DNA from: Spirochaetia bacterium | GTDB taxonomy: Bacteria; Spirochaetota; Spirochaetia; UBA9216 | DNA length: 64,000 bases | Direction of reading: 5' to 3' | Assembly (NCBI GenBank): GCA_965140585.1 | Contig: OZ223269.1 | Location: 160,001 to 224,000, forward strand | In this document: in pieces, positions 15,348-24,529 of the stretch | Position numbering within the stretch: the first letter of the stretch is position 1 | How the letters are laid out: the number at the start of each line of letters is the position of its first letter | Position numbers and translations under genes: made by a program | The notes under the pieces: generated by a model | The model's input: only the letters and a program-made list of their open reading frames with translations | What the model was told of the DNA's origin: nothing | The model's database searches: none

Positions 15348-17429
15348 TTACGTCCAGTTTTTGGATTCAAGAGGTATGGGTTTTGATATCTCGTAACCCT
15401 GGGCGTAGTCTACCTTCAATTCACTAAGCATGTTGATTATTGTTGAATTGCTTACGAATTCGGCGATTGTTTTCTTTCCCATGATATGGCCCATAGTGTT
15501 AATAGCCTCAACCATCGCTTTGTTTACACTGTCCTCATGCATATTCCGTACAAATACACCGTCAATTTTAAGATAATCGACCGGAAGGTTTTTAAGGTAA
15601 TTAAACGAAGAGAAACCGCTGCCGAAATCATCGAGGGCGAACGAACAGCCTGTCTGCTTTAAATCGTTTATGAACTCATGGGCTGAAGACATGTTGCTGA
15701 TGGTGGCTGTTTCGGTTATTTCGAAACAGAAATGCTTCGGAGAAATTCCTGAATCCCTGAACTGTTCCTTAATAAAACCAAGTATGCTGTCGTCAGTCAT
15801 GGACTGTGCTGAAAGGTTTACAGAAAACTGCTGAATATGTTTCAGCCTTCCATGCTTCATGTTTTCACGGAACAGGCGAATAGATTCGGAAATTACCCAT
15901 CTGTCAATCTGGGCCATCATGTTATAACGTTCCGCAGCAGGAATAAAATCAGCCGGCATTACAATCTGGCCTTCCTCATTTCTCATTCTGATAAGAATTT
16001 CACCCTTGCTGGGGGTATCTGGACTGCTGTTAAGAGGTCTGATTTCCTGGATGTACAGTTCAAATCTGTTCTTATCAAGAGCCCTTGAGAGTTTAGATAC
16101 CCATTCCATTTCTCCACGGCGCTTCTGAAACTGGTTCTCCATCTCGTTATAGATTTTGATCCTGTTTCCGCCTTCTTCCTTGGCTACAAAACAGGCATCG
16201 TCCACTTCCGCGAGCAGTACTGAGACTGATTTTTCCGTACCTTCAAGAAAAGCTATTCCAATGCTTGTGTCATACGGAAAAACCTTTTCTTCCCATTCGA
16301 GTCTAAGAGTGTGAAATTGATTATGAAGCATCGTTGCTTTTGCGACAATGTCATCTCTATCGGAACCGTTAAGGATAAGTCCGAACTGGTCTCCTCCAAG
16401 TCTTGCGCTATGCTCAGAGGTTTCAGAATGTTCTTTTATGATGTTGGCAACATTGACCAGCATGGTATCAGCGGTAGTATGTCCGCAGGTATCATTGATT
16501 ATTTTAAACCTGTCCATGTCAATGAAAAGAAGGGCATTTGCCTCCTGCATTGATTCACTTTCGGTGAGCAATGATTCCAGTTTAAGTGAAAAACTGTCTC
16601 TGTTGGAAAGCCCTGTCAGGTTGTCATGACTTGTGTGATAGGCTATGGCCTCGGAAAGCTTCTTTACTGTAGTCATATCCCTGATCGCAAGTACCAGCCC
16701 TTCAAAATTGCCGGGTTTGTCCATGATTGCTGCAAGGCTGCCTTCCACCTGAAGTTTTTCACCGTGATTGTTTGAAAGATAGCAGTTTTTAAAGGTAAAG
16801 GGTCGTCTGCGGATGATCATCTCGTCACTTTCTGGAAGGTTTACAACAGGACTGTCCGACTGATTCATATCCTCAAGCAGAATGATCTCATTCAGGCTTT
16901 TTCCGATAACATACTTCTCTTCCCATCCGGTAATCTTCTCGGCCACAGGGTTGATAAGTATGATGCTGTTTTCCTTGTCGGTCGCGATGATCCCATCGGC
17001 TATTGAATGAAGAATGGCTGTAGACCATCTCTGCTGCTTTTTAAGTTCCTGATCGACACGGTACTTGTATAGAGCAATATCGATGGTTGTGTAAAGTTCT
17101 TTATCCTTAAAAGGCTTAAGTATATAGCCCGAGGGTTCTGCAATTTTTGCACGCTCTATAATCTCCTGATTGGAAAACGCTGTAAGAAAAATTACAGGAA
17201 TAGCAAACCGGGTTTTTATGATCTTTGCAGTTTCAATACCGTCAATATCTCCAATAATATGAATATCCATCAGGATGATATCAGGAGAATGACGTTCGAC
17301 CATATCTATGGCATGATCAGCTGTTGCGGAAATGGCAACAACGGTATAACCATAACGTTCCAGTCGGCGCTGCAAATCAATAGCAATTATTCTTTCGTCT
17401 TCGACGATGAGTATCTTCTCACCTTTCAT
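15348..17429 (-). CDS. REC-PAS-GGDEF-EAL c-di-GMP signalling protein
   Basis: REC (IVEDE, LMDI, KPF), PAS, GGDQF, EAL domain with EIL, FEITET, LDDFGSG, KIDG, QGY. Confidence 0.9.
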   Translation of the reverse strand: MKGEKILIVEDERIIAIDLQRRLERYGYTVVAISATADHAIDMVERHSPDIILMDIHIIGDIDGIETAKIIKTRFAIPVIFLTAFSNQEIIERAKIAEPSGYILKPFKDKELYTTIDIALYKYRVDQELKKQQRWSTAILHSIADGIIATDKENSIILINPVAEKITGWEEKYVIGKSLNEIILLEDMNQSDSPVVNLPESDEMIIRRRPFTFKNCYLSNNHGEKLQVEGSLAAIMDKPGNFEGLVLAIRDMTTVKKLSEAIAYHTSHDNLTGLSNRDSFSLKLESLLTESESMQEANALLFIDMDRFKIINDTCGHTTADTMLVNVANIIKEHSETSEHSARLGGDQFGLILNGSDRDDIVAKATMLHNQFHTLRLEWEEKVFPYDTSIGIAFLEGTEKSVSVLLAEVDDACFVAKEEGGNRIKIYNEMENQFQKRRGEMEWVSKLSRALDKNRFELYIQEIRPLNSSPDTPSKGEILIRMRNEEGQIVMPADFIPAAERYNMMAQIDRWVISESIRLFRENMKHGRLKHIQQFSVNLSAQSMTDDSILGFIKEQFRDSGISPKHFCFEITETATISNMSSAHEFINDLKQTGCSFALDDFGSGFSSFNYLKNLPVDYLKIDGVFVRNMHEDSVNKAMVEAINTMGHIMGKKTIAEFVSNSTIINMLSELKVDYAQGYEISKPIPLESKNWT

Positions 17430-17497: not shown

Positions 17498-18640
17498 ATG
17501 GCCAGTCTATTTTTTGAAAACCCTATTCCCCAAACCGACCTTACAAAGCGTCTTCATGCCAGAGATCGAGATCTTCGATCGGCATATTTCCGTGATACCA
17601 CGGCAATTATTCACAGTTATCCATTCAGAAGGCTGAAGCACAAAACCCAGGTATTCTTTTCTCCCCATAACGATCATATATGTACCCGAATAGAGCATGT
17701 GATGCATGTAGCCTCGGTTGCTGCAACAATCTGCAGAGCTCTGGATCTTGATGCTGATCTTGCCTGGGCAATCGGTCTTGGGCATGATCTTGGACATACT
17801 CCCTTCGGGCATGTCGGAGAGACCATTCTTTCAGATCTGATGAAGGAGAAAGGCGGATTCAAGCATGAGATATATTCACTGCGGGTTGTAGACCATCTTG
17901 CAGGTTATGGAAAGGGCCTGAACCTTACCTACGCGGTCAGAGACGGCATTTTAAACCACTGCGGTGAAAAATTCGAGCAGTCAATGGTTCCTGATTTTAC
18001 TGTCAAAAATCTGTCAGAGATTAAAACCCGTGAGAATTATCCTGCATCCTGGGAAGGCGTTGTGGTGCGTATGTCGGATAAGATAGCCTATATGGGCCGT
18101 GATCTTGAAGATGCAATGCACCTGAAGATTATTAGCCAGGAAGATATTCCTGAAGATGTTACAAGGGTGCTCGGCAACAGCAACAGCGAGATTATCAACT
18201 CGATGGTAAATGATCTTATTGCTACTTCTCTGGAAACCGGCCGGATCGGCTTTTCTGATGACATTTTCAAGGCAATGCTTGTTCTTGTCGAGTTCAACTA
18301 CCGCAGAATCTATAAGAATCCTCTGCTTTCCACATATCACGGTTACTTTGAAAGGATGCTGAAGGTCCTGTTTGAATATCTGACTGACCTGTTCGAGAAC
18401 GGCGGTGAGAATACAGGGCATTACCGTTCTGAAAATAATTTTCTGGCAGCCCGATTCGGAGATTACTACCGGAAGATGAAAGACTTCTATCAGGAAGTCG
18501 ATGGTAATATGGATATGATTGTCTATGATTATATAGCCGGAATGTCAGATGATTATGCCATCAGCTGTGTGAATGAAATAATGGTGCCCAGGAAGTTTGA
18601 ATATCAGTTCACAGAGTTTCTTCTGCAGGAAGACTATTAG
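17498..18640 (+). CDS. dgt: Deoxyguanosinetriphosphate triphosphohydrolase-like HD protein
   Basis: FRRLKHKTQV, TRIEH, GHDLGHTPFGHVGE, SDKIAY, DYIAGMSD. Confidence 0.88.
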   Translation: MASLFFENPIPQTDLTKRLHARDRDLRSAYFRDTTAIIHSYPFRRLKHKTQVFFSPHNDHICTRIEHVMHVASVAATICRALDLDADLAWAIGLGHDLGHTPFGHVGETILSDLMKEKGGFKHEIYSLRVVDHLAGYGKGLNLTYAVRDGILNHCGEKFEQSMVPDFTVKNLSEIKTRENYPASWEGVVVRMSDKIAYMGRDLEDAMHLKIISQEDIPEDVTRVLGNSNSEIINSMVNDLIATSLETGRIGFSDDIFKAMLVLVEFNYRRIYKNPLLSTYHGYFERMLKVLFEYLTDLFENGGENTGHYRSENNFLAARFGDYYRKMKDFYQEVDGNMDMIVYDYIAGMSDDYAISCVNEIMVPRKFEYQFTEFLLQEDY

Positions 18641-19338
18641 TTGTTGTATTTTACCATGCAGTTGATTCCTGCCTCTTCTACGATAGTTTTCAGCCGGTCA
18701 AGATATACAGCATCTGCAGCATTCAGCCTGGAATAGTCCGGATCAAGAGTGTTCCCGGGTCTGAACCCCTGAATTACAAAATTCTCCTCACCGTTAAGAA
18801 GTTTTACAATTTCTCTGATATCGTCTGAAGTGACAAGCTCCGGTACTGCTGTGGTTCTGAAGTGATGGGCAATTCCGGAGTTTTTGATTATTCCGATTGA
18901 TTCAAGAATCCTGTCCTTGATCTCATTCCTGCTGCCCGTATAGCCCATAACAGCATAGCGTGACGGGGCTGTTTTGATATCCATGGCAATGTAGTCGGCC
19001 TTAAGTGTTTTAAGCTTGTCAGGAAGTGCCCCGTTTGTATCCACTTTAACCTTGTAGCCGAGGGAATGCAGTTCCTCTATCATTTCATCAAGATCGCTGT
19101 GAATCATCGGTTCCCCGCCTGATATACAGACGCCTCCGAGAAGTCCCTGGCGTTTTTTAAGGTATTCGATTATTTCAGACCAGGTAAGAAGGCCTTCTCT
19201 GTCATCTCCGCAGACAAGGCCCGGATTATGACAGTAGGGGCATCTCATATTGCATCCCCGGGTAAAGACTGTTGCTGCAACCTTTCCCGGGTAATCAAGA
19301 AGTGTAGTCCGGGTAAGCCCGAACAGTTTTTCCTGCAT
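18637..19338 (-). CDS. nrdG: Anaerobic ribonucleotide reductase activating enzyme (radical SAM)
   Basis: LLDYPG, GCNMRCPYCHN, SGGEP, KVDTNG; last gene of the nrd operon. Confidence 0.93.
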   Translation of the reverse strand: MQEKLFGLTRTTLLDYPGKVAATVFTRGCNMRCPYCHNPGLVCGDDREGLLTWSEIIEYLKKRQGLLGGVCISGGEPMIHSDLDEMIEELHSLGYKVKVDTNGALPDKLKTLKADYIAMDIKTAPSRYAVMGYTGSRNEIKDRILESIGIIKNSGIAHHFRTTAVPELVTSDDIREIVKLLNGEENFVIQGFRPGNTLDPDYSRLNAADAVYLDRLKTIVEEAGINCMVKYNN

Positions 19339-19341
19339 TTT

Positions 19342-19869
19342 TTAAACTAAAACTTCAGTAAAAAGTGACTTCAGTGAATCAACACTTGTGGCTCTGTAGA
19401 GCTCATTTCCGGATTCATCGATGAAGACAACAGTAGGTGATACAAAAATTCTGTATTTTCCTGCCAGTTCAAATCCTGATTTTTCATCTACATTAACTGT
19501 TTTTCCATTCATGTAGAAACCCTCAAGCCAGTTCTTTACGGGCGGACAGTTGGGACATGTAGTCCTGTAAAAGTAAATATATGAAGAAGGCTGAACTGAT
19601 GTTTCCTGCTGAAGGAAAGATGCGGGGCTCTGATCAGTGTATGTAGCAGTGCTGATAGCGGTTCCGGCGGCTTCTCTCACAGAAGGCTTGTCGGGCTGGG
19701 AAAAAAGTGTTCTGTGGTTGTACTCGTCTCTTTTACCCTTGTTCCAGTTCCTTACAGACCGGTAGTACCCTACAATCCTGGTATACACTTCGGTTTCGGT
19801 TCCCTTAACGGTCTGAAGCTTGTCCTTCAGTGTTCTGATTTCTTTTTCAATAGTCTCAATAGTTTTCAT
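19342..19869 (-). CDS. Stand-alone NrdD glycyl-radical domain fused to a thioredoxin/glutaredoxin-like domain (CPNC), 175 aa
   Basis: TEVYTRIVGYYRSVRNWNKGKRDEY glycyl-radical motif; C-terminal YFYRTTCPNC...VSPTVVF Trx fold; own RBS GGGAG before ATG 19869. Confidence 0.9.
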   Translation of the reverse strand: MKTIETIEKEIRTLKDKLQTVKGTETEVYTRIVGYYRSVRNWNKGKRDEYNHRTLFSQPDKPSVREAAGTAISTATYTDQSPASFLQQETSVQPSSYIYFYRTTCPNCPPVKNWLEGFYMNGKTVNVDEKSGFELAGKYRIFVSPTVVFIDESGNELYRATSVDSLKSLFTEVLV

Positions 19870-19882
19870 AATGTTCTCCCAG

Positions 19883-21997
19883 TTATCTGTTTTCTGCTCC
19901 CAAGAGCGATGATTTTTCTTTCTCAAGCTGTTCAATATTCTTTGCAATTTCCGCTTTTTCCTCATCAGCGCATTTCGGACAGTTGAAATGTTCGCCGTTA
20001 AGGTAGCCGTGCTTCGGACATACCGAAAATGTCGGTGATATTGTGAAGTAGGGCAGGTGGTAGTTGCTTGCGATACCTCTCACAAGGTTCATGCATGATT
20101 CCCAGTCATCAATTGCTTCACCGAGGAATCCGTGGAAAACCGTTCCTCCGGTATACTTAATCTGAAGTTCATCTTGCAGATCGAGTGCTTCAAAGATGTC
20201 GGTTGTAAAATCGACCGGAAGCTGTGAAGAATTGGTGTAGTATGGGTCGTCTGTACCTGCAGTGATGATATCCGGGTATCTCTGCTTGTCATGTTTTGCA
20301 AGACGGTAGCTTGTACTTTCAGCCGGTGTAGCTTCGAGGTTGTAGAGATCGCCTGTTTTTTCCTGATAATCAGCAAGTCTGTCTCTCATGAAATCAAGGA
20401 CCTCAAGTGCAAACTCTTTGCCCTCGGTATCAAGAATATCCTTCCCCATGAAGTTAAGCAGACACTCGTTCATTCCGCAGATACCGATTGTTGAGAAATG
20501 GTTGTTAAGATGTGACAGATAACGCTTTGTATAGGGAAAGAGTCCCGAATCCATCAGTCTGTTTACAACTTTTCTTTTCATTGAAAGCGATTCCGCGGCA
20601 AGATCCATAAGGTGGGCAAGTCTGCTGAAGAAATCGTTTCTTGAATTGGAGAGATATCCTATTTTCGGCAGGTTAATAGTGACAACACCTATCGATCCTG
20701 TGAACTCGTCTGAGCCGAAAAGGCCGCCGCCTCTTTTTCGAAGTTCTCTCTTGTCAAGCTGAAGTCTGCAGCACATTGAACGTACATCACCGGGGTTGAG
20801 ATCTGAATTGATAAAATTCTGAAAGTAGGGCGTACCGTATTTTGCAGTCATTTCAAACAGAAGTTTGGCATTAGGTGATGTCCAGTTGAAATTCTTTGTT
20901 ATGTTGTACGTAGGAATGGGGTATTGGAATCCGCGTCCGTTTGCATCACCGGTAATCATAAGCTCAATGAATGCCTTGTTGATTATATCCATTTCATCCT
21001 GACAGTCGCCGTAGGTGAAATCCATTTCCTTTCCGCCTACGATTGCAGGTTTATCCTTCAGATCGTCGGGTACTATCCAGTCGAGTGTGATGTTTGTAAA
21101 AGGTGCCTGACTTCCCCATCTTGAAGGTGTATTAACTCCGAAGATAAAGCTCTGAAGACCCTGTTTTACTTCCTTGTGTGACAGCTCATCAGCCTTTACA
21201 AAGGGCGCAAGATATGTGTCGAAGCTTGAAAGTGCCTGAGCTCCGGCCCATTCGTTCTGCATGATTCCGAGGAAATTTACTATCTGCTGAATCAGTGTTG
21301 AAAGGTGGGCTGCCGGCAGCGATGTGATCTTGTCCGGTACTCCGCCGAGTCCTTCCTGTATAAGCTGTCTGAGCGACCATCCGGCACAGTAGCCTGAAAA
21401 CATGGATAAATCATGAATATGAAAATCCGCGTTTCTGTGTGCTTCGGCTACTTCTTCCCTGTAGATATTTTTCAGCCAGTAGTTTGCTGTAATTGTACCG
21501 GAGTTATGCAGAATCAGGCCTCCCAGTGAGAAGTTGACGTTTGCGTTTTCATTTACACGCCAGTCAGACTGCTGCAGGTAGCCGTCCATGGTGTTGTTGA
21601 TGTCGAGCATGAGTTTCCTGGTGTCACGGATAACTTCATGTCTGGCACGATAGATTATGTATGCCTTTGCAATATCAACCTGTCCTGATTCAACAAGAAT
21701 GTGCTCTACTATATCCTGAATCTCTTCGATTGCAGGCGCAGAATTTGGGTGTCGTCCCTTCATGAATGATTTTAGCGCTGTTTCAACCCGGCAGGTCAGA
21801 TCTTCCACCAACTCAGGATTTTCAGATTCCTGAGCTGCAGAGACAGCCCTTCCGATTGCGCTTGCGATTTTCCATCTGTCATACTGTTCAATTTTTCCGT
21901 CGCGTTTGACTATTCGCCTTATTACCGCTTCAATTGCAGGCTTGTGTTCAACGCCAAGGAAATCTTTCCAGTCGTTTTCATTTTTACTGAAATCCAA
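19883..21997 (-). CDS. nrdD: Class III ribonucleoside-triphosphate reductase catalytic subunit (ATP cone, barrel, Zn site; lacks C-terminal glycyl-radical motif)
   Basis: IVKRDG ATP cone, HIHDL, GYCAGW, RSMCCRL, EATPAES, YTGGT, CPKH...CPKC; TTG start with G-rich RBS. Confidence 0.95.
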   Translation of the reverse strand: MDFSKNENDWKDFLGVEHKPAIEAVIRRIVKRDGKIEQYDRWKIASAIGRAVSAAQESENPELVEDLTCRVETALKSFMKGRHPNSAPAIEEIQDIVEHILVESGQVDIAKAYIIYRARHEVIRDTRKLMLDINNTMDGYLQQSDWRVNENANVNFSLGGLILHNSGTITANYWLKNIYREEVAEAHRNADFHIHDLSMFSGYCAGWSLRQLIQEGLGGVPDKITSLPAAHLSTLIQQIVNFLGIMQNEWAGAQALSSFDTYLAPFVKADELSHKEVKQGLQSFIFGVNTPSRWGSQAPFTNITLDWIVPDDLKDKPAIVGGKEMDFTYGDCQDEMDIINKAFIELMITGDANGRGFQYPIPTYNITKNFNWTSPNAKLLFEMTAKYGTPYFQNFINSDLNPGDVRSMCCRLQLDKRELRKRGGGLFGSDEFTGSIGVVTINLPKIGYLSNSRNDFFSRLAHLMDLAAESLSMKRKVVNRLMDSGLFPYTKRYLSHLNNHFSTIGICGMNECLLNFMGKDILDTEGKEFALEVLDFMRDRLADYQEKTGDLYNLEATPAESTSYRLAKHDKQRYPDIITAGTDDPYYTNSSQLPVDFTTDIFEALDLQDELQIKYTGGTVFHGFLGEAIDDWESCMNLVRGIASNYHLPYFTISPTFSVCPKHGYLNGEHFNCPKCADEEKAEIAKNIEQLEKEKSSLLGAENR

Positions 21998-22012: not shown

Positions 22013-22468
22013 TTAGAATTTTAACTTTTTAATTTCATCGACAAACTGCTGAACATCGGCATATTTCCGGTACACTGATGCAAACCTTACATAGGCAACG
22101 CTGTCTATATTGTAGAGTTTTTCCAGTGCAAGTTCTCCGAGTGCTTCAGCTGAAACCTCATGGCTGCTTTTACCCAGCATATAGGCTTCGTCTTCTATCG
22201 ATGTCAGTATTTCTGCAACAGTTTCTGCAGGAACAGGACGTTTTTCCAGAGAGCGTTCCAGACCTCTTGCTATCTTGCTGATATCAAAGGGTTCCCTGAC
22301 TCCGCTCCTTTTAATAACCATCAGCGGCTGTTCCTCGATCCGTTCGTAGGAGGTGAACCTGTATGAACATGACAGACACTCGCGCCTTCTTCGGATTGAA
22401 TTGGCCGTTGCTGACTGTCTTGATTCCAGAACTCTGTCGTTATCTTCTCCGCATCGCGGACATCTCAT
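22013..22468 (-). CDS. nrdR: Transcriptional repressor NrdR
   Basis: MRCPRC, IRRRRECLSCSYRFTSYE, ATP cone, VAYVRFASVY. Confidence 0.96.
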   Translation of the reverse strand: MRCPRCGEDNDRVLESRQSATANSIRRRRECLSCSYRFTSYERIEEQPLMVIKRSGVREPFDISKIARGLERSLEKRPVPAETVAEILTSIEDEAYMLGKSSHEVSAEALGELALEKLYNIDSVAYVRFASVYRKYADVQQFVDEIKKLKF

Positions 22469-22521: not shown

Positions 22522-22580
22522 CCACTATATATAGTGCGTTATCCAATAGTCTGCCAATTTTATCACGCTATATATTGGGT
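22522..22580. promoter_or_regulatory. Two NrdR boxes
   Basis: CCACTATATATAGTGC (22522-22537) and ACGCTATATATTGGGT (22565-22580) match acaCwAtATaTwGtgt. Confidence 0.85.
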
Positions 22581-22647
22581 GGCAATAGAAATTGTTAAGA
22601 AAATATTAATATATTGTTTGAATTTTAAGAGGGTGTATAAACACTTG

Positions 22648-23355
22648 TTAGTCTGTAAAATCAGAGTCGGAAACAGCGATGGTTCCGGTTGTTGTGAGGT
22701 TGCCGAATATATGAACTATACCTTCGAATACTGTAGTGTATGATACGGATCCGCTGTCCTCGGCTGTTACAGTTGCAGAAAGCCTGTAGTCTGTACCGCT
22801 GTCCCCGGTATAAGTCATTGTGTAGGGAGCAGTTATTATCGATCCCTCTATAAGGGTTGTCGGGCTTGTAAGGCCCTTGTATAGGCTCCAGCTTACACTG
22901 CTTATGCTTAGTGCTGAAGTAACTGCTGATGTATCAAGGCTGATGCTGATATCGCCGATCGTGCTTAGCAGGTCAAGCGTTATGCTTTGCTCGGATGTGG
23001 TCCCGGCGACAACATCCACAGATATCTCCGCAGATTCGGCTACTATTGTATCATCTTCAAGTTCAGCACTTACCTGAATCACCCAGGTACCGTGGCTCAG
23101 AAGAAGCGCTCCTGATGTTCCGGTAAATATCTGATCCTCTTCGGAGACGGCTTCTCCGTTGAAAGAAATAAATGAAACCCTGTACTGCGATATTGCAAGC
23201 TCAGGAGAAATAGTAGCAAATCGGGAAGTCTCACCTGTGTCAACTATGAAATCAAGGCCTATGCCTCCGGGCAGGGCGGATTCACCGCCCATGCATGAGG
23301 CTGAAATAAATATCGTCAATATAATTAGTACTGTGGCCGCAGTTCGTTTAATCAT
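22648..23355 (-). CDS. Hypothetical Ser/Thr-rich beta-sandwich lipoprotein
   Basis: Signal MIKRTAATVLIILTIFISAS-C; acidic, S/T-rich; similar to neighbour. Confidence 0.75.
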   Translation of the reverse strand: MIKRTAATVLIILTIFISASCMGGESALPGGIGLDFIVDTGETSRFATISPELAISQYRVSFISFNGEAVSEEDQIFTGTSGALLLSHGTWVIQVSAELEDDTIVAESAEISVDVVAGTTSEQSITLDLLSTIGDISISLDTSAVTSALSISSVSWSLYKGLTSPTTLIEGSIITAPYTMTYTGDSGTDYRLSATVTAEDSGSVSYTTVFEGIVHIFGNLTTTGTIAVSDSDFTD

Positions 23356-23385
23356 AGCTAAAACAGTTTCTCTAATTACGCTCTG

Positions 23386-24426
23386 CTAGTCAACCACAAT
23401 AAACCTTAGAGTGTCAGAATAGTAGCTGCCGTCGCTCTGTACGTAGACTGTTAGATGATATACGCCGGGAGTCAGTGCTGTAGTATCGATAGTAGTATTG
23501 TTAGTGCCGTCGCTTGCTGACAGATCAAAACCGGTCAGTGACCATATATAATCAGTATATCCACTCTGAACATATGCATTGAAAGTATCAGTGTCGTTAT
23601 CGTAGATCTCATCATCTGGAAGTGCGGTGCTTCCATCTGAGGTGAAGTTTATAGTCTCATCAGCCGGGGTAATAACAGTTAGTGTGATTTCCACGGTGCC
23701 TGTTGTGTCTCCGATGAAGTCTTCATAATCATAGGTTATTGTGCCTGAAGTTACAATATTGTCACGTACCTGGACAGAGACCGGAACAGATAGAACCCCT
23801 GCAGAATGGGTAAGATTGACGGTGAACTGGTAATCACCCGAGGTTATACCGTTTGAATCTAAACCCAGATTGGTATAGGTTACACTTCCGGAACCAATTC
23901 CGGATGTGATAAGTGTTCCGTTTGTTTCTTCTGTACCGGTTGACGTATAGATGAGTGAAGCGGTGGCTGTAATAACTGTTATTCCTGAACTCGCCCAGCT
24001 TACAGTAAGTGAATCAATAAAGCCGGTACTGGATGAGGTTGCAGCAAGTGTTGCAGAAGCTGATGTTGTACTGCCGGTGGTTATGGTGAATGATGCAATT
24101 GTTCCGGAGACTATTGCAACTCCGGCAGCAGTGGGATCCGCATCATAACCTGTCACTGTAGCAGCGTATGAGCCTGGCAGCATTTCTATTCCTGAAGCCG
24201 CTTCAGCTGTTGTGTAGGTGTGAGTGAAATCTTCAGTTCCGGTAAAGACAATAGTTAAATAGGCAACATCTCCCTCAGTAAGTCCATATAAAAGAGTTGT
24301 GCCGCGACTGTTTGAATAATCAAGGTTAAGTTCTAATGTGCCAAGCACTGAAGCCGGCGCTTCAAGAAAACAGGACGAAAGGAATACTATTGTAATAACA
24401 ACGATGATAGATAGTTTTTTTAACAT
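23386..24426 (-). CDS. Hypothetical Ser/Thr-rich beta-sandwich lipoprotein
   Basis: Signal MLKKLSIIVVITIVFLSS-C from ATG 24426 (G-rich RBS); S/T-rich, almost no basic residues in mature part. Confidence 0.75.
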   Translation of the reverse strand: MLKKLSIIVVITIVFLSSCFLEAPASVLGTLELNLDYSNSRGTTLLYGLTEGDVAYLTIVFTGTEDFTHTYTTAEAASGIEMLPGSYAATVTGYDADPTAAGVAIVSGTIASFTITTGSTTSASATLAATSSSTGFIDSLTVSWASSGITVITATASLIYTSTGTEETNGTLITSGIGSGSVTYTNLGLDSNGITSGDYQFTVNLTHSAGVLSVPVSVQVRDNIVTSGTITYDYEDFIGDTTGTVEITLTVITPADETINFTSDGSTALPDDEIYDNDTDTFNAYVQSGYTDYIWSLTGFDLSASDGTNNTTIDTTALTPGVYHLTVYVQSDGSYYSDTLRFIVVD

Positions 24427-24529
24427 GATAAGCCCCCCCTGACTTAGTTTTGATAACAAATAGTATATACCCGGGCAGTGGAGATCAGAAGTATGAGAAT
24501 GAAAGTTTAGATTAAAATACTACTAAAGT

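What the first reader, a model, noticed from the sequence alone, without database searches (positions are those of the whole stretch)
19342..21997. Naturally split class III ribonucleotide reductase: glycyl radical on a separate small subunit
Seen: the 704-aa NrdD has the ATP cone, barrel, finger-loop cysteines and Zn site (CPKH...CPKC), then stops at 19883 without an RxxGY motif. After a 13-nt gap containing a good RBS (GGGAG), a 175-aa ORF in another frame carries TEVYTRIVGYYRSVRNWNKGK (Gly codon 19768-19770), followed by nrdG. Known: canonical NrdD carries this motif in cis, O2 cleaves glycyl-radical enzymes at that Gly, and pyruvate formate-lyase is repaired by the autonomous glycyl-radical protein YfiD/GrcA. 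Inference: this is an obligately two-chain RNR whose oxygen-labile radical sits on a cheap, replaceable cartridge. I am not aware of a characterised example.
Basis: partly seen in the sequence, partly recalled or inferred. Interest (0 to 1): 0.92.

Follow-up and report, generated by a model that had tools for sequence, protein, structure and literature searches.

The report
Two-chain anaerobic ribonucleotide reductase
This spirochaete makes its oxygen-sensitive DNA-precursor enzyme from two separate proteins, with the radical-bearing loop on a small protein that also carries a thioredoxin-like domain, an arrangement that is common in its phylum but that I could not find described.

Summary
On the minus strand lie nrdR, a 704-aa NrdD, a 13-nt spacer with GGGAG, a 175-aa ORF and nrdG. 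The 704-aa protein has the ATP-cone, barrel, MCCR finger loop and Zn ribbon but no glycyl-radical loop.

The break is not an artefact.
- I read the same break directly in 25 related genomes. All three stop codons occur, 13 junctions are in frame and 12 are not, and spacing runs from an 8-nt overlap to 117 nt.
- 119 of the 120 closest large-subunit homologues lack the radical loop.
- Contigs from two other studies span the junction without an indel.
- In one complete genome the two halves lie about 600 kb apart.
- Two near-complete genomes have this enzyme and no class I/II RNR match.

- Both sides of the break carry conserved heptad helices. They are absent from single-chain relatives and are modelled as a coiled-coil clamp.
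- The small chain ends in a thioredoxin-fold domain with an invariant CPxC.

A second split form, with 52-71-aa radical-loop-only proteins and sometimes 3-4 copies per genome, occurs elsewhere in the phylum and in other phyla. Seven literature searches found no description. The "replaceable cartridge" idea is untested.

The parts
22522..22582 (-). Two AT-rich palindromic boxes upstream of nrdR, resembling NrdR operator boxes
   Evidence: Read. The resemblance to NrdR boxes is recalled and was not tested.
22013..22468 (-). nrdR, the transcriptional repressor of RNR genes (151 aa)
   Evidence: Zn_ribbon_NrdR plus ATP-cone. TIGR00244, 176 bits (cut-off 124.65).
19883..21997 (-). nrdD large subunit (alpha), 704 aa, TTG start. 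It has an ATP-cone, the barrel and a Zn ribbon but no glycyl-radical loop.
   Evidence: NRDD 1-536 of 562; NF006126, 1105 bits, positions 3-662 of 684.
21635..21916 (-). ATP-cone (aa 28-121)
   Evidence: PF03477, E 9e-18.
20765..20776 (-). Finger-loop motif M408-C409-C410-R411 (double-cysteine type)
   Evidence: Invariant in 68 large subunits. Motif classes are described in PMC9669993, section 2.5.
19970..20020 (-). Zn-ribbon ligands C660-P-K-H663 ... C673-P-K-C676
   Evidence: C660, H663, C673 and C676 are invariant in 68 sequences.
19886..19969 (-). C-terminal amphipathic helix of alpha (aa 677-704), one half of the clamp
   Evidence: positions 684, 688, 691 and 698 are 96-100% hydrophobic and the rest are charged. 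It is absent from single-chain relatives. models contacts with small-chain residues 2-21.
19870..19882 (-). 13-nt spacer with a GGGAG ribosome-binding site (19876-19880)
   Evidence: The same CTGGGAG spacer occurs in five relatives.
19342..19869 (-). Small subunit (beta), 175 aa: anchor helix, glycyl-radical loop, linker, thioredoxin-like domain
   Evidence: (1684 similar proteins of 96-307 aa).
19807..19866 (-). N-terminal heptad helix of beta (aa 2-21), the other half of the clamp
   Evidence: positions 4, 7, 11, 14, 18 and 21 are 84-100% hydrophobic; helix at 4-20; interface.
19696..19803 (-). Glycyl-radical domain segment (aa 23-58). Gly34 is at 19768-19770.
   Evidence: NRDD positions 532-562; 18 invariant residues, including R31, I32, V33, G34, Y35 and Y36; aa 24-30 pair with alpha 656-660 and 669-673, and aa 31-58 lie in the barrel.
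19585..19695 (-). Variable, probably disordered linker (aa 59-95)
   Evidence: no conservation and variable length; pLDDT below 50 for aa 69-90.
19345..19584 (-). Thioredoxin-fold domain (aa 96-175). C105-P-N-C108 is at 19546-19557.
   Evidence: beta-alpha-beta-alpha-beta-beta-alpha; thioredoxins are the top PDB folds. C105, P106, C108, P145 and T146 are invariant. Glutaredoxin Pfam hit in 53 of 62 members.
18637..19338 (-). nrdG, radical-SAM activase (233 aa). It starts 3 nt after the stop codon of beta.
   Evidence: TIGR02495 NrdG2, 178 bits (cut-off 131.15). Radical_SAM.

Best explanation
This is a working class III (anaerobic) ribonucleotide reductase built from two polypeptides, plus its activase.

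Composition:
- Alpha (704 aa) supplies the ATP-cone, the barrel, the active-site cysteines and the Zn ribbon.
- Beta (175 aa) supplies the glycyl-radical loop in trans.

How it most likely works:
1. Beta docks through an antiparallel coiled coil between its N-terminal helix and the C-terminal helix of alpha.
2. A short strand of beta pairs with the Zn ribbon, and the loop carrying Gly34 reaches into the barrel.
3. NrdG with SAM abstracts the Gly34 hydrogen. The radical passes to a finger-loop cysteine and then to the substrate, as in single-chain NrdD.
4. The thioredoxin-like CPNC domain, tethered to beta by a linker of about 35 residues, most likely re-reduces the active-site disulfide after each turnover.

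What is shown: gene structure, conservation, domain content, heptads and fold.

What is inferred, with my odds:
- assembly and radical transfer in trans, about 0.9;
- the redoxin as dedicated reductant, about 0.5;
- an adaptive gain from swapping or pre-activating beta, about 0.3.
For: The break is real and old.
- I read 25 genomes with both gene ends directly, and 2 more with only the small ORF at a contig edge. Stop codons are TAA, TAG and TGA. 13 junctions are in frame and 12 are not. Spacing runs from -8 to +117 nt and includes ATGA and TAATG overlaps. Each has an ATG start, and most have a purine-rich stretch upstream.
- 119 of the 120 best large-subunit homologues lack the Gly loop and end 21-36 aa after the Zn site.
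- There are 1684 small proteins with E<=1e-3 among 1718 candidates. At 50% identity there are 289 clusters at E<=1e-10, and 146 of the best 150 are under 300 aa.
- Contigs from two other studies cross the junction without an indel.

The two-chain form must function.
- G000 has one barrel and one Gly loop.
- G026 (99% complete) and G036 (98%) have the split NrdD and no PF02867 match.
- In G055, a single-contig genome, the barrel lies at 0.71 Mb and the loop gene plus a radical-SAM gene at 1.32 Mb.

The clamp.
- The heptad pattern is conserved on both chains.
- The helices are absent from the 31-32 single-chain NrdD-Trx relatives and from the canonical relatives, where the Gly loop follows the Zn site within 4-5 residues.

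Complex model.
- ipSAE is 0.75 (runs 0.76, 0.75, 0.72) against a best control of 0.00.
- That mark was reached by 58 of 80 solved complexes and 2 of 110 mismatched pairs.
- The runs agree in at least 66% of contacts, and partner pLDDT is at least 66.
- My own alignments were used, so the calibration counts hold only roughly.
- The interface is alpha 680-699 with beta 2-21, alpha 656-673 with beta 24-30, and beta 31-58 inside the barrel.
- Single-chain NrdD structures are solved, so part of this pass may be from memory.

The redoxin.
- It has the thioredoxin fold.
- CPxC and the P145-T146 pair are invariant in 62 of 62 sequences.
- Alpha has the double-cysteine MCCR loop, which is linked in print to thiol-based reduction, and the strand-A cysteine C204, aligned to T. 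maritima C125.
- A glutaredoxin fused to the radical-generating subunit of a class I RNR has been shown to act as its reductant (PMC6187632, passages).
Against: - No biochemistry exists: no radical, activity or complex has been measured.
- This genome also has a second RNR (PF02867 match), so the split enzyme need not be essential here.
- The complex score may reflect likeness to solved single-chain NrdD.
- The thioredoxin domain made no confident contact in the model.
- The thioredoxin domain is missing from the small subunits of G039 and of genus g36, so it is dispensable for the split itself.
- The finger loop keeps its Met, so formate could still be the reductant.
- P0001's own Thioredoxin_2 and Glutaredoxin Pfam scores are below the curated cut-offs.
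- No RNA or protein evidence is available.
Confidence: 0.82

Rival explanations
1. Radical cartridge or spare part: the main selected benefit of the split is that beta is exchanged. Free beta is activated by NrdG off the enzyme, and O2-cleaved beta is displaced by fresh beta, so the 80-kDa alpha subunit is spared.
For: - O2 cleaves glycyl-radical enzymes at the Gly, and YfiD rescues PFL (PMC13450708, passages).
- Other lineages carry 3 (G197) or 4 (G240) mini Gly-loop genes beside one barrel gene, and some of those copies are unlinked.
- Beta is small.
Against: - G000 has only one beta gene.
- ATGA and TAATG overlaps in relatives suggest roughly 1:1 synthesis.
- 162-173 confident modelled contacts plus a coiled coil suggest a tight complex.
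- Cleavage at Gly34 would leave the anchor helix and strand (aa 1-33) bound to alpha, blocking a new beta.
- Nothing has been measured.
Confidence: 0.28
2. Neutral fission: the gene broke at the tip of an inserted helical hairpin. The two chains always reassemble into the same enzyme, and the split itself gives no functional gain.
For: - The helices are exactly what would hold a nicked hairpin together.
- One natural protein, P0155, has the whole hairpin in one chain.
- Split class II RNR is a precedent (PMC9669993, passages).
Against: - The same position is split in two barrel clades separated by branches with 100% support, and in other phyla. Recurrence hints at an advantage.
- The split form far outnumbers the single-chain Trx form: 1684 against about 31 in the two searches. 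The length windows differed, so these are not strictly comparable.
Confidence: 0.35
3. Recoding: a frameshift or stop read-through yields one fused chain in the cell.
For: In this window the small ORF's frame is open back to 19965 and overlaps the end of nrdD.
Against: - Frames, stop codons and spacers differ among the 25 genomes, including extra stops in the spacers of G014 and G027.
- Each has its own ATG, and most have a purine-rich stretch before it.
- The halves are about 600 kb apart in G055.
Confidence: 0.02
4. Assembly error or decaying pseudogene.
For: None was found.
Against: - The junction is identical in a second genome of the genus.
- No indel appears in contigs of two other studies.
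- 119 of 120 homologues share the truncation.
- Catalytic residues are invariant in both chains.
Confidence: 0.01

Closest known systems
Single-chain class III RNR (NrdD with NrdG), e.g. phage T4, T. maritima and P. copri
   Same: - Same barrel family, ATP-cone, finger loop, strand-A cysteine, Zn ribbon and Gly-loop sequence.
- Same type of activase.
   Different: - The Gly loop is on another polypeptide.
- A pair of heptad helices flanks the break.
- A thioredoxin-fold domain follows the loop.
YfiD/GrcA, the autonomous glycyl-radical protein of pyruvate formate-lyase
   Same: A small stand-alone protein that carries a glycyl-radical loop and works with a large barrel protein (PMC13450708, passages).
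   Different: - YfiD backs up an enzyme that has its own loop. Here the barrel has none, so beta is obligatory.
- There is no sequence relation to the PFL loop (no Gly_radical Pfam hit).
- The review says such proteins are known only for formate lyases.
Split class II RNR NrdJa/NrdJb of Pseudomonas aeruginosa
   Same: A natural two-gene RNR broken near the C-terminus, with the C-terminal functional module on the second chain (PMC9669993, passages; PMC4520616, seen only in the search listing).
   Different: - It is a different class.
- Its second chain carries a Zn finger and cysteine pair for reduction, not the radical.
- PMC9669993 calls split domains possibly distinct to class II.
Grx::NrdB fusion of Facklamia ignava (class I)
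   Same: A redoxin fused to the radical-carrying subunit of an RNR, shown to reduce the holoenzyme (PMC6187632, passages).
   Different: - It is class I, with an N-terminal fusion to a ferritin-type subunit.
- That paper lists a single grx::nrdD fusion, in a Lachnospiraceae strain, in a table I could not open.
Thioredoxin-dependent NrdD of Neisseria bacilliformis (NrdD2)
   Same: - Double-cysteine finger loop.
- A Glu in the N-x-E motif, aligned to the T. maritima protein.
   Different: - That enzyme uses free thioredoxin, and its loop lacks the Met. Here the Met is kept and the redoxin is tethered.
- I could not read the primary paper, which is not held.

Membership tests
Class III RNR (NrdD/NrdG) | NrdD barrel domain above the curated cut-off | tested here: met
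   PF13597, 593 bits. NF006126, 1105 bits (cut-off 548).
Class III RNR (NrdD/NrdG) | Finger-loop cysteine motif (MGCR or MCCR) and the strand-A cysteine | tested here: met
   M408-C-C-R411 and C204 are invariant in 68 sequences. C204 aligns with T. maritima C125. Motifs are described in PMC9669993.
Class III RNR (NrdD/NrdG) | C-terminal glycyl-radical loop in the same chain as the barrel | tested here: not met
   The large protein stops at model position 536 of 562. The loop (positions 532-562) is on the 175-aa protein. The enzyme as a whole has it in trans.
Class III RNR (NrdD/NrdG) | Zn ribbon before the Gly loop | tested here: met
   CPKH...CPKC. The same CxxH...CxxC occurs in single-chain relatives. 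Metal binding itself was not tested.
Class III RNR (NrdD/NrdG) | Cognate radical-SAM activase | tested here: met
   TIGR02495 NrdG2, 178 bits (cut-off 131.15), 3 nt downstream of the stop codon of beta.
Class III RNR (NrdD/NrdG) | Glycyl radical formed; NTP reduction | not testable with these tools
   Needs EPR and activity assays.
YfiD/GrcA-type spare part | Stand-alone small protein carrying a glycyl-radical loop | tested here: met
YfiD/GrcA-type spare part | Partner enzyme has its own loop, which the small protein replaces after damage | tested here: not met
   There is one barrel without a loop and one loop in the genome.
YfiD/GrcA-type spare part | Homology to the PFL glycyl-radical domain | tested here: not met
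   No Gly_radical (PFL-type) hit appeared; only the NRDD C-terminus matched.
Thioredoxin-fold dithiol redoxin | Thioredoxin fold | tested here: met
   pLDDT 84-92 over aa 91-170; 184 PDB hits at E<=1e-3, with thioredoxins on top.
Thioredoxin-fold dithiol redoxin | CxxC at the start of helix 1, and the conserved Pro of the loop opposite it | tested here: met
   C105, P106, C108, P145 and T146 are invariant in 62 of 62 sequences. CxxC is present in 148 of the best 150 representatives. Reading P145 as the cis-Pro is recalled knowledge.
Thioredoxin-fold dithiol redoxin | Pfam family match above the curated cut-off | tested here: inconclusive
   P0001 scores 18.7 bits (cut-off 27) and 17.3 bits (cut-off 22.9). 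53 of 62 relatives hit Glutaredoxin at E<=0.01.
Thiol-dependent NrdD (NrdD2) | Extra finger-loop Cys plus an active-site Glu | tested here: inconclusive
   The CC pair is present. E555 in N-L-E aligns with the T. maritima N-I-E, whereas the formate-type P. copri enzyme has S-I-L at that position. That this is the defining Glu is recalled, and the primary paper is not held.

The most novel reading that the evidence does not exclude
Beta is a self-contained, exchangeable radical-plus-reductant module. NrdG charges free beta off the enzyme, and charged beta plugs into alpha. After O2 exposure the damaged module is swapped, so activity returns without remaking alpha. The mini Gly-loop genes of other lineages (3-4 per genome, some possibly on phages) would be true spare parts. 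This would be the first spare-part system for a glycyl-radical enzyme other than PFL, and it would have arisen at least twice.
Probability: 0.28. Interest if true: 0.92.

Novelty: new variant of a known kind. Interest (0 to 1): 0.78.

Why it matters
- Class III RNR is treated as a single catalytic chain whose C-terminus carries the radical.
- A 2026 review of glycyl-radical enzymes says spare-part proteins are known only for formate lyases, and that it is open whether others exist.
- A 2022 survey suggests that split domains may be distinct to class II RNRs.
- Here the radical loop is a separate gene product. By my hand count of the listed rows, about 117 of the 146 matching genomes, out of 301 Spirochaetota genomes sampled, have the loop in a small open frame.
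- The same architecture occurs in Thermodesulfobacteriota and Aquificales assemblies.
- This offers a natural system for four questions: whether the activase acts on a free radical domain, how the domain enters the barrel, whether damaged radical domains are exchanged, and whether a tethered redoxin feeds a class III active site.
- It also matters for annotation. The small proteins have no family model of their own in Pfam or NCBIfam. Surveys that drop proteins under 400 aa would miss them (PMC9531940, passage).

Tried and rejected
- Artefact, pseudogene and recoding readings were rejected (see the rival explanations).
- One search's open_frame_aa values of 850-918 for some relatives suggested single chains. 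Direct reading showed in-frame stops in each, so I did not use that column.
- My regex flagged P0203 as having a Gly loop. It had matched R-V-H-G-Y in the Zn site, so the count is 119 of 120, not 118.
- Alignment A4 was meant to give AlphaFold a single-chain hairpin model of P0155. It placed the small subunits on the ATP-cone, so I dropped it and did not use the second structure job.
- The first tree run was killed. The tree I report is a quick LG+G4 search of 50 rows and 520 barrel columns. Two rows (L046, L049) were left out because my ORF pattern missed them. Many forks are open, and the root is not inferred.
- Sequencing runs: no RNA holder is listed, so nothing can be said on expression. 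The best DNA holder, X1, is identical and may be the source, so I do not count it.
- Wei et al. 2014 (PMC4246965) is not held. What I say about it comes from other papers' passages and from recall.
- Supplements are closed. Table S1 of PMC6187632 may list redoxin-NrdD fusions that bear on novelty.
- The Atlas hits are leads only and were not followed: 131-142-aa NRDD+Glutaredoxin clusters in Bacillota, and 51-63-aa NRDD clusters in viruses. The viral ones could be the second exon of intron-split phage nrdD (PMC3653736, passages).
- "Not in print" rests on searches. Subscription journals are mostly outside that library.
- PF02867 might miss an unusual class II enzyme, so "only RNR found" for G026 and G036 holds for that model only.
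Full report
WHAT IS THERE.

On the minus strand of the window lies a tight operon:
- nrdR, 22013-22468.
- A 704-aa nrdD, 19883-21997, with a TTG start.
- A 13-nt spacer containing GGGAG.
- A 175-aa ORF, 19342-19869.
- nrdG, 18637-19338, which starts 3 nt after the small ORF's stop codon.

Pfam places NRDD model positions 1-536 of 562 and an ATP-cone on the large protein. Only positions 532-562 fall on the small one. NCBIfam gives the same picture with NF006126: 3-662 of 684 on the large protein and the last 35 positions (648-682) on the small one. It identifies nrdG as TIGR02495 and nrdR as TIGR00244.

IS THE BREAK REAL?

I read the junction directly in relatives of the same class.
- 25 genomes show both the end of the large gene and the start of the small one. 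Two more show the small ORF at a contig edge.
- The stop codon is TAA, TAG or TGA.
- The two genes are in the same frame in 13 genomes and in different frames in 12.
- Spacing runs from an 8-nt overlap, through ATGA and TAATG overlaps, to 117 nt with further stops in between.
- Each small gene has its own ATG, and most have a purine-rich stretch before it.

No single recoding device fits this variety.

Further evidence:
- Of the 120 best homologues of the large subunit, 119 lack the Gly loop and end 21-36 residues after the Zn site. The exception is P0155.
- The small protein has 1684 relatives of 96-307 aa at E<=1e-3, among 1718 candidates.
- In a library of 50%-identity representatives it has 289 relatives at E<=1e-10, and 146 of the best 150 are under 300 aa.
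- Contigs from two other studies, 46 and 63 substitutions away, span 19200-20300 with no indel at the junction. The identical run X1 may be the source and is not counted.

MUST THE TWO-CHAIN FORM WORK?

- The window's genome has one NrdD barrel and one Gly loop. It also has a second RNR of class I/II type, so essentiality cannot be argued here.
- Two near-complete relatives, G026 (99% complete) and G036 (98%), have the split NrdD and no PF02867 match.
- In G055, a single-contig genome, the barrel gene lies at 0.71 Mb. The loop gene lies at 1.32 Mb, followed by a radical-SAM gene. Assembly in trans is the only reading for that genome.

(a) A clamp.
- In single-chain relatives the Gly loop follows the second Zn-site CxxC within four or five residues.
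- In the split form, about 25 residues are added on each side of the break.
- Across 68 large subunits, positions 684, 688, 691 and 698 are 96-100% hydrophobic and the rest are charged.
- Across 62 small subunits, positions 4, 7, 11, 14, 18 and 21 are 84-100% hydrophobic.
- This is the pattern of two amphipathic helices that pack on each other. If joined, they would form a hairpin, and P0155 is a natural protein with that hairpin in one chain.

(b) A redoxin.
- Residues 96-175 fold as beta-alpha-beta-alpha-beta-beta-alpha with good confidence.
- Their best structural matches are thioredoxins: 184 PDB hits at E<=1e-3.
- By sequence profile, the nearest solved proteins are small glutaredoxin-like proteins and thioredoxins, with NrdH far down the list.
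- C105, P106, C108, P145 and T146 are invariant in 62 of 62 sequences.
- The linker, aa 59-95, is variable and modelled as disordered.

COMPLEX MODEL.

I folded alpha residues 140-704 with beta, each with my own alignment.
- ipSAE was 0.75 (three runs: 0.76, 0.75, 0.72) against a best control of 0.00.
- That mark was reached by 58 of 80 solved complexes and 2 of 110 mismatched pairs in the tool's calibration. These counts hold only roughly, because my own alignments were used.
- The runs agree in at least 66% of contacts, and partner pLDDT is at least 66.

The confident interface has three parts:
- Alpha 680-699 with beta 2-21, in an i, i+3/4 rhythm on both chains.
- Beta 24-30 against alpha 656-660 and 669-673, the Zn ribbon.
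- Beta 31-58 inside the barrel.

Beta 24-26 touch alpha 672-673, so the two helices must run antiparallel. The thioredoxin domain made no confident contact. Single-chain NrdD structures are solved, so the barrel part of this pass may be from memory. The helices have no counterpart in the matches.

REDUCTANT.

- Alpha has the MCCR finger loop. PMC9669993 (section 2.5) says double-cysteine loops go with thiol-based reduction, and that those keeping the Met could use either formate or thioredoxin.
- C204 aligns with T. maritima C125.
- The N-L-E motif at 553-555 aligns with the T. maritima N-I-E. The formate-type P. copri enzyme has S-I-L at that position. That this Glu is the one used to define the thiol-dependent subtype is my recollection.
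- A glutaredoxin fused to the radical-generating subunit of a class I RNR acts as its reductant (PMC6187632, passages).
- I therefore read the tethered domain as the likely reductant, at about even odds. It is absent from the small subunits of G039 and of genus g36, so the split does not depend on it.

WIDER PICTURE.

In 301 genomes sampled across the phylum, 146 matched the small protein. My hand count of the listed rows is:
- 40 genomes with the helix + loop + redoxin form.
- 9 genomes (one genus) with helix + loop only.
- 2 genomes with single-chain NrdD-Trx.
- 68 genomes with the loop alone in open frames under 130 aa.
- 11 genomes with the loop in frames over 700 aa.
- 2 unclear.
- 14 genomes whose rows were not listed.

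I opened 12 loci.
- In seven genomes of other classes the order is a 677-701-aa barrel gene with a different tail, then a 52-65-aa loop-only ORF, then nrdG. In G177, counting from its first ATG, the ORF is 92 aa. In G051 the barrel gene is itself in two pieces.
- G240 has four such mini genes and G197 has three, beside one barrel gene each.

A scan of one genome per species with the mini alignment kept 80 loci. They sort as follows:
- 69 have the loop in a long ORF, mostly in Clostridia.
- 8 have it in a short ORF.
- 2 lie at contig edges.
- 1 has no motif.

Five of the short ones belong to Aquificales, Thermodesulfobacteriota or unclassified assemblies and sit behind a truncated nrdD. Three of those five have nrdG next.

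A quick tree of the barrel region puts the two split types in clades separated by branches with 100% support. The same site has therefore probably been broken at least twice. Within the window's clade, single-chain NrdD-Trx forms branch near the base. This hints that the redoxin fusion came before the break, but support is weak and the root is not known.

IS IT KNOWN?

- Seven full-text searches found no description of a class III RNR with the radical loop on a separate chain.
- The 2026 review PMC13450708 (passages) states that spare-part proteins are known only for formate lyases, and that it is undetermined whether others exist.
- PMC9669993 (passages) discusses split class II RNRs and suggests that split domains may be distinct to class II.
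- PMC9531940 (passage) removed proteins under 400 aa from its data set.
- PMC3653736 (passages) lists phage nrdD genes split by introns and one fragmented case, which is a different matter.
- Public annotations call the small proteins "anaerobic ribonucleoside-triphosphate reductase", "glutaredoxin", "thioredoxin" or "hypothetical".
- I may have missed work in journals outside the library, or in RNRdb.

VERDICT.

The two-chain reading is strongly supported. The cartridge reading is open, and for this coiled-coil form somewhat disfavoured by the anchor. I rate the finding as a new variant of a known kind, of high interest to people who study RNRs and glycyl-radical enzymes.

Noticed in passing
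window 22522-22582 (-): Two AT-rich palindromic boxes about 30-45 nt apart lie upstream of nrdR. They look like NrdR operator boxes (recalled), which would make the operon self-regulated.
   Followed up: no
window 17498-18640 (+): An HD plus HD_assoc phosphohydrolase of the dGTPase-like type lies beside nrdG on the opposite strand, the two genes converging. A similar gene sits beside nrdG in at least four loci, which suggests linked dNTP supply and breakdown.
   Followed up: partly
window 15348-17429 (-): A 693-aa response regulator with receiver, PAS, GGDEF and EAL domains.
   Followed up: partly
window 22648-24459 (-): Two adjacent Ser/Thr-rich ORFs (235 and 357 aa) with hydrophobic N-termini. 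They may be surface proteins or lipoproteins.
   Followed up: no
L034-L044 (other classes of the phylum); L053, L064, L070, L102, L114 (other phyla): A second split NrdD type: a barrel gene with a different tail after the Zn site, then a 52-71-aa loop-only ORF, usually followed by nrdG.
   Followed up: partly
L037, L039 (G240); L040, L042 (G197): Extra mini Gly-loop genes lie away from nrdD. There are four copies in G240 and three in G197, beside one barrel gene each. The L040 copy lies among small ORFs that look phage-like.
   Followed up: partly
L045 (G055:C1, about 1.3156 Mb) and G055:C1:712268-713863: In a complete 2.8-Mb genome, the helix-plus-loop gene (95 aa, no redoxin) and a radical-SAM gene lie about 600 kb from the barrel gene.
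   Followed up: yes
L044 (G051): The barrel gene is itself in two ORFs (264 and 426 aa). This could be a frameshift, an assembly error or a further split.
   Followed up: no
column open_frame_aa: The family search of the genome search reported open frames of 850-918 aa for matches that the protein search reported as 160-200 aa. Direct reading showed in-frame stop codons between the genes.
   Followed up: yes
P0125-P0154, P0156: About 31 single-chain NrdD proteins of 800-920 aa carry the same thioredoxin-like domain after the Gly loop, without the helical insert. I did not find this NrdD-redoxin fusion described beyond one grx::nrdD mention.
   Followed up: partly
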